This document shows, in pieces, positions 12,926-13,517 of a DNA stretch of 64,000 nt. This DNA is from Octopus sinensis (lineage: Eukaryota). Within the stretch, counting starts at the first letter, position 1. Each line of letters opens with the position of its first letter. Made by a program: the position numbers. The stretch spans positions 30,696 to 94,695 of the forward strand of contig NW_021833115.1 in the NCBI RefSeq assembly GCF_006345805.1. The letters run 5' to 3'.

Positions 12926-13517
12926 TAATTATAATAATAAATGCCCTGATGCAGTACCAGGCAGTGGCTCTCAAGGCTTCTGATCTTAACTGATTGGAAG
13001 TGTTATCATGTACATAGTTTTGTCTTGGTATATAAGATGGGCTACAGCAAATATTCTGCTCAATACCACAGATTTGCTTGTCAGTTGTTTGACCTTAACC
13101 AGTTGAGCATGTCCCTTGGTGGCTGACGATATGTGCATCTCTGATCACGAGCAGAAGTAGTGGGGGAGCATCATAGCCATGTGTTGAGAGGGATTCTTTG
13201 GGGTTTGAATAATTCACCTCTGGAAACATGGGTGGTTCTTTCAACATCCTTAAACAAACCTTATTCAGGGACCTTTTGAGCGCGATGGGCTACTCGACCT
13301 GAAGAAAATTCAAACTGAACCCCACCTGCAAGGTCATGCGCTGTTTATCTTGATATGAGATCACCATGTCGCGTACATATGGTTGTGATGCATGTGCCTG
13401 GTGTACCCTTATCAGACGGGTAGTCATGATGGGTATATTGGGCTTCGTATATTTTACTCCAGTGTCACTTTGATGGCATGAACTGCTCTCTCACTCAATA
13501 ATAATAATAATACTAAT

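What the first reader, a model, noticed from the sequence alone, without database searches (positions are those of the whole stretch)
12941..13496. Element A: 556-bp non-coding retroposon found almost only in (TAA)n
Seen: nine copies (10966, 12371, 12941, 17765, 29829, 38870, 39840, 40482, 63147) have a fixed 3' end followed by (AAT)n in eight of nine. Their 5' ends are variably truncated, and there is no ORF, clear tRNA head or TIR. Polarity matches the neighbouring R4/Dong copies. Established: Dong (R4 clade) targets TAA repeats. Inference: a non-autonomous passenger of an RLE-type LINE with no evident 3' homology to the four local families; its origin and promoter are unknown.
Basis: partly seen in the sequence, partly recalled or inferred. 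Interest (0 to 1): 0.7.

Follow-up and report, generated by a model that had tools for sequence, protein, structure and literature searches.

The report
Non-coding retroposon that targets TAA repeats
A 556-base non-coding mobile element sits nine times in this window, almost always inside TAA repeats and pointing the same way as neighbouring Dong-like LINE fragments, so it most likely borrows their copying machinery.

Summary
blastn finds nine copies of element A at the stated coordinates. All share one 3' end (...CTCTCTCACTC). Eight of nine are followed by (AAT)n and eight of nine are preceded by it. Their 5' ends fall at consensus positions 1, 1, 1, ~20, 31, 49, 197, 396 and 429. A has no conserved ORF, no terminal inverted repeat and no tRNA or Rfam match. 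Four families of 5'-truncated R2-group LINE fragments lie in the same (TAA)n tracts with the same polarity. A shows no detectable similarity to their 3' ends or to 80 related LINE proteins. Best reading: a non-autonomous non-LTR retroposon inserted by target-primed reverse transcription into (TAA)n, mobilised in trans by a Dong-like LINE. The partner, promoter and origin remain unknown. No HDV-like ribozyme was found, and the predicted 3' hairpin has no covariation support. It is a new member of a known kind and moderately interesting.

The parts
12941..13496 (+). Element A, full-length copy (556 nt), the copy named in the finding
   Evidence: Query. (AAT)n lies on both sides. It starts ATGCCCTGATGCAG and ends CTCTCTCACTC.
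17765..18320 (+). Element A, full-length copy
   Evidence: consensus 1-556, 95.9% identity. Same 5' end as 12941 and (AAT)n on both sides.
29829..30380 (+). Element A, full-length copy with two 1-nt deletions in the first 10 nt
   Evidence: It is followed by (AAT)n and then LINE family L1 on the same strand.
12371..12870 (+). Element A, older copy that starts near consensus position 20 and has internal deletions
   Evidence: (86.6% identity), alignment, (8.7-11.1% divergent from the other copies).
39838..40363 (-). Element A, copy starting at consensus position 31
   Evidence: The 3' end is 2 nt short. (AAT)n in the element's orientation lies on both sides.
10966..11474 (+). Element A, copy starting at consensus position 49
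63147..63500 (-). Element A, copy starting at position 197; the only copy without (AAT)n after its 3' end
   Evidence: A 183-nt (AAT)n tract lies upstream in its orientation, followed by LINE family L3.
40482..40642 (+). Element A, copy starting at position 396; its 5' end abuts (ATT)n, the opposite polarity
   Evidence: It lies head to head with the copy at 39838-40363. The two share no derived substitutions.
38869..38993 (-). Element A, copy starting at position 429
   Evidence: It lies directly downstream of the 3' end of an L1 LINE fragment, separated from it by (AAT)n.
30544..33169 (+). Context: Dong-like LINE family L1, 5'-truncated (RT, CCHC, PD..D region, 3' UTR), in (TAA)n. A candidate mobiliser. 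Further L1 pieces lie at 39060-39684(-) and 34879-35235(-).
   Evidence: Pfam RVT_1 E 3.2e-16. Sequence. PDB best match is R2, E 1.6e-12. tblastn. Islands.
11534..12064 (+). Context: Dong-like LINE family L2, 3' fragment, in the same (TAA)n tract as three A copies
   Evidence: sequence. tblastn: 66% identity to the L1 C-terminal ORF.
63682..64000 (-). Context: Dong-like LINE family L3, 3' fragment that runs off the window. Other L3 pieces lie at about 52850-53203(-), 19554-19763(+) and 12152-12293(+).
33287..34965 (-). Context: Dong-like LINE family L4, a diverged copy interrupted by another repeat. Its ~130-200-nt tail is the 'Y' unit at 10741-10869 and in the satellite at 19745-29830.
   Evidence: L4 tail against Y, z 27.7.

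Best explanation
Element A is a discrete non-coding non-LTR retroposon of about 556 nt. It inserts strand-specifically into (TAA)n microsatellites by target-primed reverse transcription. It uses in trans the reverse transcriptase and endonuclease of a Dong-like, R2-group LINE that has the same target.

Shown:
- A has a unit length with a defined 5' end.
- It has a fixed 3' end and graded 5' truncation.
- It has no coding capacity.
- It is placed in (TAA)n with one polarity, the same as four co-resident LINE families.
- The arrays are non-nested.
- Copies show two age classes.

Inferred:
- The A RNA carries (UAA)n at its 3' end, because transcription runs into the downstream repeat. That tail pairs with the nicked (TTA)n strand to prime cDNA synthesis.
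- If transcription starts in the upstream repeat, the (TAA)n at the cDNA's far end pairs with the target. This gives a uniform 5' junction, as postulated for R2 RNAs that keep upstream 28S sequence (PMC3774820, abstract).
- Transcription is probably by Pol II or by read-through, not Pol III.

The partner family and the way it picks A RNA are not known.
For: - Nine copies with one 3' end and 5' starts at 1, 1, 1, ~20, 31, 49, 197, 396 and 429.
- (AAT)n lies 3' of 8 of 9 copies and 5' of 8 of 9, always with the same polarity relative to the element where present.
- (AAT)n-type tracts are only 7-14% of the window.
- No conserved ORF. No similarity to 80 LINE relatives by tblastn; the best E value in the printed part of the output was 0.099.
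- LINE fragments of four families sit in the same tracts with the same polarity, each followed by (AAT)n.
- The RT of family L1 is closest to R2 among solved structures: E 1.6e-12, against 4e-3 for L1 ORF2p.
- A full-length relative aligns to R2 from the RT through the CCHC motif, E 4.3e-28.
- None of the 80 relatives carries a precomputed Exo_endo_phos domain.
- Divergence is 3.4-5.4% among the five long young copies and 8.5-11.1% between these and the two old long copies at 12371 and 63147. This fits repeated rounds of copying rather than one duplication.
- No copy is interrupted by another element.
- Conserved T4 runs on the sense strand, no B-box better than chance (174 matches against 162 expected), no tRNA and no Rfam family argue against a Pol III head.
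- Published: Dong targets (TAA)n in a moth, a mosquito and a snail (PMC3812793, passage read). R2 has non-autonomous SIDE partners (PMC3414825, abstract read).
Against: - No LINE with a 3' end like A's is in the window. nhmmer finds nothing beyond the nine copies. Smith-Waterman scores against the tails of L1-L4 have |z| below 2. The usual proof of a SINE-LINE pair is therefore missing.
- No promoter was found. No ribozyme was found: Rfam gives no relevant hit at E<=10, and my own HDV-like descriptor gives 26-61 hits in real copies against a mean of 50.7 in shuffles.
- The predicted 3' hairpin has no covariation support: 277 of 500 shuffles reach the observed score.
- Target-site duplications cannot be read inside a microsatellite.
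- The three full-length copies have only repeat DNA as flanks, so their independence cannot be proved.
- The C-terminal ORF of L1 itself has no PDB match at E<=10. Its PD..D motif was read by eye.
- Only one 64-kb window was seen.
Confidence: 0.72

Rival explanations
1. A is the 3' part (a long 3' UTR) of an autonomous Dong-like LINE whose coding region is not in this window. The nine copies are ordinary 5'-truncated LINE insertions.
For: Heavily 5'-truncated LINE tails are common here. Examples are the L3 pieces of 140-210 nt and the L4 'Y' tail of ~130 nt. The four LINE families have tails unlike each other, so an unseen fifth family with A as its tail is possible.
Against: Three of nine copies start at the same nucleotide, directly after (TAA)n. 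Six of nine start within the first 50 nt. Truncation of a LINE of more than 4 kb would not pile up there. No coding remnant is present at the 5' end.
Confidence: 0.12
2. The (TAA)n is A's own tail, as in the I element. A is a generic retroposon moved by an APE-type LINE, and it lands in A+T-rich DNA without true target specificity.
For: The I element ends in TAA repeats (PMC3747384, passage read). An APE-type LINE is in the window at 1360-3996.
Against: Eight of nine copies also have long (AAT)n upstream with matching polarity. The local APE-type LINE has no (TAA)n near its 3' end. The co-resident elements in the same tracts are R2-group LINEs.
Confidence: 0.08
3. A is not a retroposon. It is either a DNA element that targets microsatellites (Helitron-like, or like the plant SaTar MULEs) or a piece of satellite spread by DNA duplication.
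For: Non-nested arrays of unrelated elements at microsatellites are described for SaTar MULEs (PMC5907723, abstract read). Tandem DNA duplication is active in this window: a ~1-kb unit is repeated ~10 times at 19745-29830.
Against: There are no terminal inverted repeats. Truncation is graded at the 5' end only, with a constant 3' end. Polarity relative to the repeat strand is strict (8 of 8 3' flanks), which insertion at an AT dinucleotide would not give. Copies occur on both strands and have different unique surroundings.
Confidence: 0.03

Closest known systems
R2 SIDEs (short internally deleted elements) of Drosophila (PMC3414825, abstract read)
   Same: Both are short non-coding passengers of a site-specific R2-group LINE. 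Both insert at the LINE's own target with LINE-like junctions and can only persist while an autonomous element supplies the TPRT activity.
   Different: SIDEs are made of the LINE's 5' ribozyme joined to its 3' end. A shows no similarity to any local LINE 3' end, and no HDV-like ribozyme was detected. No full-length local LINE is available to compare 5' ends.
Dong of Bombyx mori, DongAg and DongBg (R4 clade; PMC3812793 and PMC3774820, passages read)
   Same: Both target (TAA)n, insert in a fixed orientation, show 5' truncation and have (TAA)n on both sides.
   Different: Dong is autonomous (RT plus endonuclease) and has a 5' HDV-like ribozyme that cleaves at the (TAA)n/Dong junction. A has no ORF and no detected ribozyme.
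Canonical SINE-LINE pairs with a shared 3' tail (PMC3747384, passages read)
   Same: Both are short, non-coding and LINE-dependent, and both have a simple-repeat 3' end.
   Different: A has no small-RNA head or Pol III boxes, has conserved T4 runs on the sense strand, and shares no tail with the four local LINE families.
Alu/L1-type 'relaxed' recognition through the terminal repeat (PMC3747384, passages read)
   Same: It is possible that only the terminal repeat, here (UAA)n, links passenger and LINE. The four LINE families and A share nothing else at their 3' ends.
   Different: Relaxed recognition is not documented for R2-group elements in the papers I read. R2 and R1 are described there as stringent (PMC3414825, abstract).
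SaTar MULE arrays at plant microsatellites (PMC5907723, abstract read)
   Same: Both form linear, non-nested arrays of unrelated elements built up inside microsatellites.
   Different: SaTar elements are DNA transposons with terminal inverted repeats. A has none and carries retroposon hallmarks.

Membership tests
Non-autonomous non-LTR retroposon (broad sense) | Constant 3' end with variable 5' truncation among copies | tested here: met
   nine copies, one 3' end, 5' starts from position 1 to 429.
Non-autonomous non-LTR retroposon (broad sense) | No coding capacity for RT or endonuclease | tested here: met
   no conserved ORF; no match better than E 0.099 to 80 LINE relatives in the printed part of the output.
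Canonical SINE | 5' head derived from tRNA, 7SL, 5S or snRNA with an internal Pol III promoter | tested here: not met
   ARAGORN 0. Rfam: none at gathering score and only A+T-rich noise at E<=10. B-box motif no better than chance. Sense-strand T4 runs. Caveat: Rfam and ARAGORN also failed to call the SINE-like head at 17347, so sensitivity is limited.
Canonical SINE | 3' tail shared with the partner LINE | tested here: not met
   Tested against the four LINE families of this window only. The rest of the genome could not be searched.
SIDE-type derivative of a site-specific LINE | 5' end is the LINE's self-cleaving HDV-like ribozyme | tested here: inconclusive
   No Rfam ribozyme at E<=10. My own loose descriptor was no better than shuffles.
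SIDE-type derivative of a site-specific LINE | Same target site and orientation as the parent LINE | tested here: met
   A and LINE families L1-L4 all sit in (TAA)n with (AAT)n downstream in their own orientation.
R4/Dong clade (applies to the local LINE families, not to A) | Single ORF with RT followed by CCHC and a restriction-like endonuclease, and no APE domain | tested here: met
   RT by Pfam. Closest solved structures are R2. Full-length relative P0007 aligns to R2 from the RT through CCHC. No Exo_endo_phos domain among the 80 relatives. The PD..D motif was read by eye. The C-terminal ORF alone has no PDB hit.
R4/Dong clade (applies to the local LINE families, not to A) | RT phylogeny places the element with Dong and R4 rather than with R2, NeSL, CRE or HERO | not tested
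R4/Dong clade (applies to the local LINE families, not to A) | Insertion in (TAA)n | tested here: met
DNA transposon or Helitron | Terminal inverted repeats, or Helitron-type termini, with orientation-free insertion | tested here: not met
   no terminal inverted repeat; strict polarity. The termini seen are not of the Helitron type as I recall it.

The most novel reading that the evidence does not exclude
Dong-like LINEs may pick their template through the (UAA)n read-through tail rather than through a family-specific 3' UTR. Any RNA transcribed from within a (TAA)n tract would then be bounded by the target repeat at both ends. It could be copied into another (TAA)n tract with no shared tail, no promoter of its own at position +1 and no ribozyme. 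Element A would be the 'Alu' of a microsatellite-specific, R2-group LINE. That would be a relaxed-recognition passenger in a group thought to be stringent. It would also explain why four LINE families with unrelated tails and A share one landing pad.
Probability: 0.2. Interest if true: 0.65.

Novelty: new member of a known kind. Interest (0 to 1): 0.4.

Why it matters
Passengers of site-specific R2-group LINEs are rare in print. R2 SIDEs are the example I could read. In four full-text searches I found no paper describing one for a (TAA)n-specific LINE.

An abundant passenger with no shared tail would bear on how these reverse transcriptases choose RNA. That question now has practical weight, because R2-type enzymes are studied for targeted insertion.

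It also shows how a microsatellite can grow into a multi-kilobase, non-nested array of retroelements.

If the true partner elsewhere in the genome simply shares A's tail, this is an ordinary SINE-like family that needs annotating.

Tried and rejected
- **Rfam:** the whole window at gathering scores gave 0 matches. The copy at 17700-18380 at E<=10 gave only three hits in or next to the A+T-rich flanks, none relevant.
- **tRNA and Pol III boxes:** ARAGORN found none. A B-box motif with up to 2 mismatches gave 174 matches against 162 expected. Inside A only 2-mismatch hits occur.
- **HDV-like fold:** I wrote a descriptor from the recalled HDV-like architecture (P1, P2, P3, L3, P1.1, J4/2). It gave 26, 27 and 61 hits in the three full-length copies against a mean of 50.7 (maximum 188) in 50 shuffles. 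It therefore carries no signal.
- **Remote DNA homology:** nhmmer --max with the nine-copy profile found nothing else. Smith-Waterman of A against the L1, L2, L3 and L4 tails, the Y unit, the SINE-like element at 17347 and the 5' part of L1 gave z between -0.9 and 1.75. The last 150 nt of each gave z between -0.6 and 0.83.
- **Degenerate coding remnant:** tblastn of 80 LINE relatives against three A copies gave no hit better than E 0.099 in the printed part of the output, which was cut.
- **3' structure:** RNAalifold predicts a long hairpin. It has 0 compensatory pairs, and 277 of 500 shuffles reach the covariation score. Whole-element folding gives z -3.4. The last 120 nt give z -2.8 and -1.7 in two copies. 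These are suggestive only.
- **Twin priming for the head-to-head pair at 39838-40642:** rejected, because both copies contain the same 3' segment and share no derived substitutions.
- **PDB search with the L1 C-terminal ORF:** no hit at E<=10. I used a full-length relative instead.
- **Not possible here:** Dfam or Repbase, the rest of this genome, RNA-seq or CAGE. 

Full report
**Observation.** A profile built from the nine copies, run with all filters off, finds the same nine plus three noise hits at E 2.5-9.6.

In the alignment, seven copies end ...CTCTCTC(A/G)CTC and two end 2-3 nt earlier. Three copies (12941, 17765, 29829) begin at the same nucleotide. The others begin at about 20, 31, 49, 197, 396 and 429.

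In the element's own orientation, (AAT)n follows 8 of 9 copies (not 63147). (AAT)n precedes 8 of 9 (not 40482, which abuts (ATT)n).

Perfect (AAT)n-type runs of at least 12 nt make up 7.3% of the window. By my sum of the TRF rows they make up about 14%. Nine random placements would all touch such tracts with P below about 2e-8. One polarity in 8 of 8 3' flanks has P of about 0.008.

**What A lacks.**
- The longest stop-free stretches in six copies are 38-98 codons, and they differ between copies.
- tblastn of 80 LINE relatives against three copies gives nothing better than E 0.099 in the printed part of the output.
- There is no terminal inverted repeat.
- ARAGORN finds no tRNA in the window.
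- Rfam gives nothing at gathering score. At E<=10 it gives only three irrelevant hits on the A+T-rich flanks.
- A B-box motif occurs no more often than in shuffles, and only with two mismatches inside A.
- The sense strand keeps three T4 runs in most copies. By established knowledge of Pol III termination, this argues against a Pol III transcript.

One caution applies. The same tools also fail to call the head of a SINE-like element at 17347-17683 that shows a B-box-like motif by eye. Their silence is therefore weak evidence.

**Surroundings.** I scanned 90 of the 184 stop-to-stop frames of at least 90 codons against Pfam. The other 94 were dropped as low-complexity repeat translations. Reverse transcriptase appears at 30859-31931(+). 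An APE-type LINE appears at 1360-3996.

The RT belongs to a 5'-truncated element at 30544-33169, family L1. It starts and ends in (AAT)n and carries a frameshifted CCHC motif and an RPD...D stretch downstream of the RT. Both were read by eye.

tblastn with its pieces finds three further families of the same kind, all in (TAA)n tracts:
- L2 at 11534-12064(+).
- L3 at 12152-12293(+), 19554-19763(+), about 52850-53203(-) and 63682-64000(-).
- L4 at 33287-34965(-).

Among solved structures the RT is closest to R2 (E 1.6e-12, against 4e-3 for L1 ORF2p). The C-terminal ORF alone finds no solved structure. It has about 1200-residue relatives in many animals, and none of them carries a precomputed APE domain. 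One such relative, P0007, aligns to R2 proteins from the RT through the CCHC motif (E 4.3e-28).

These are therefore R2-group, (TAA)n-specific LINEs, Dong-like in behaviour. A tree with named Dong and R4 references could not be made, so the clade label stays untested.

Published passages I read say that Dong targets TAA repeats in Bombyx, Anopheles and Biomphalaria (PMC3812793). They also say that Bombyx Dong has a 5' HDV-like ribozyme that cleaves at the (TAA)n/Dong junction (PMC3774820).

**Arrangement.** A copies and LINE fragments form trains inside single (TAA)n tracts, all pointing one way.
- 10583-13569 holds, in order: an L4 tail, A, L2, L3, A, A.
- 29829-33209 holds A then L1.
- 38855-40483 on the minus strand holds A, L1, A.
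- 63147-64000 on the minus strand holds A then L3.

No copy is interrupted by another. Polarity matches the neighbouring LINE for 8 of 9 A copies. The copy at 40482(+) lies head to head with 39838-40363(-) across an (ATT)n tract. The two overlap in content and share no derived changes, so this is not twin priming.

**Relation to the LINEs.** A shows no similarity to any LINE tail, to the L4-derived Y unit, to the 5' part of L1 or to the SINE-like element. Smith-Waterman z values run from -0.9 to 1.75. For the last 150 nt they run from -0.6 to 0.83.

The four LINE families are equally unlike each other at their 3' ends. The highest z is 2.4, while the L4 tail against Y gives 27.7 as a positive control. 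The only thing all of them share at the 3' end is the (AAT)n that follows.

**Age.** The five long young copies differ by 3.4-5.4%. They differ from the two old long copies at 12371 and 63147 by 8.5-11.1%. The three copies carrying C rather than A (or T) at one position about 15 nt from the 3' end are 12371, 63147 and 38869. This fits copying over a period of time, not one duplication.

**Structure and ribozyme.** A full-length copy folds better than shuffles (z -3.4). RNAalifold places a 20-bp hairpin about 55-100 nt from the 3' end. There are only one-sided changes and no compensatory pairs, and 277 of 500 shuffles reach the covariation score. The hairpin is therefore only a prediction.

A loose HDV-like descriptor that I wrote from the recalled fold finds as many solutions in shuffles as in A. 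No ribozyme is shown, and none is excluded.

**Mechanism.** I commit to a non-autonomous retroposon copied by target-primed reverse transcription into (TAA)n by a Dong-like LINE enzyme (confidence 0.72). The insertion pattern is shown. The enzyme source is inferred from shared target, polarity and junction type.

I further infer that the RNA is bounded by (UAA)n at both ends because it is transcribed from within a repeat. The 3' repeat pairs with the nicked target to prime cDNA. The 5' repeat gives a uniform 5' junction, as postulated for R2 RNAs that retain upstream 28S sequence (PMC3774820, abstract).

**Rivals.**
- A 3' UTR of an unseen LINE (0.12). The shared 5' end of three copies, and six starts within 50 nt, argue against it.
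- An element with its own TAA tail, like the I element (PMC3747384), moved by an APE-type LINE (0.08). The upstream (AAT)n in 8 of 9 copies argues against it.
- A DNA transposon or a duplicated satellite (0.03). The absence of terminal inverted repeats, truncation at the 5' end only and strict polarity argue against it.

**Comparison and novelty.** The nearest described things are the R2 SIDEs (PMC3414825), which are made from the LINE's own ribozyme and 3' end. A works like them but fails the test for a shared 3' end against the local LINEs. The ribozyme test is inconclusive. It also fails the head and tail tests for a canonical SINE.

Four full-text searches turned up no paper describing a passenger of a (TAA)n-specific LINE. 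Repeat libraries could not be searched, and the element may already sit there unnamed.

I rate it a new member of a known kind, with interest 0.4. The boldest reading still open is template choice through the (UAA)n tail alone (probability about 0.2).

**Left open.** The rest of the genome, Dfam and Repbase, expression data and supplementary files of the papers were out of reach.

Noticed in passing
window 19745-29830: There are about ten tandem units of ~1 kb. Each unit is a long degenerate (TAA)n plus a ~130-200-nt unit that is the extreme 3' end of Dong-like family L4 (z 27.7 against the L4 tail; the last residues of the ORF are detectable in a unit at E 0.008). A truncated LINE tail plus its target repeat has thus been amplified as a satellite. 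The array ends exactly where the A copy at 29829 begins.
   Followed up: partly
window 17347-17683: This is a SINE-like element with a B-box-like motif (seen by eye) and a tail of (AAC)7(AAT)n. It has (AAT)n on both sides, 80 nt upstream of a full-length A copy. ARAGORN and Rfam do not call a tRNA. The only other match in the window is a weak 102-nt one at 61764-61864.
   Followed up: partly
window 16109-17007, 18580-18996, 56415-56968, 4405-5341: A 184-185-nt unit occurs in short tandem arrays at several places on both strands. Copies are 85-94% alike.
   Followed up: no
window 39838-40642: Two A copies lie head to head across a 120-nt (ATT)n tract. The repeat polarity switches exactly at the 5' end of the plus-strand copy. 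This could be an inversion or an unusual 5' joining event. It is not twin priming.
   Followed up: partly
window 1360-3996: An APE-type LINE remnant carries zf-CCHC, Exo_endo_phos and zf-RVT. It has no RT hit at E<=0.01 and no (TAA)n near its 3' end.
   Followed up: partly
window 46835-47167 (-): A mariner-type transposase fragment (Pfam Transposase_1, E 4.4e-9).
   Followed up: no
window 9681-10110, 33627-33996, 49685-50117, 51158-51571, 52121-52530, 59915-60316, 62442-62822 and others: A further interspersed repeat family of ~430 nt is present in at least ten copies on both strands (75-92% alike). One copy interrupts LINE family L4. It was not classified.
   Followed up: no
window 57744-58640: Nested inverted and direct repeats of 190-310 nt at 95-96% identity.
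   Followed up: no
whole window: Simple-repeat load is very high: 90 TRF rows. Besides (TAA)n these include long (CA)n, (CAC)n, (GAA)n, (GAT)n, (ATAC)n, (TACC)n and (AT)n tracts.
   Followed up: no
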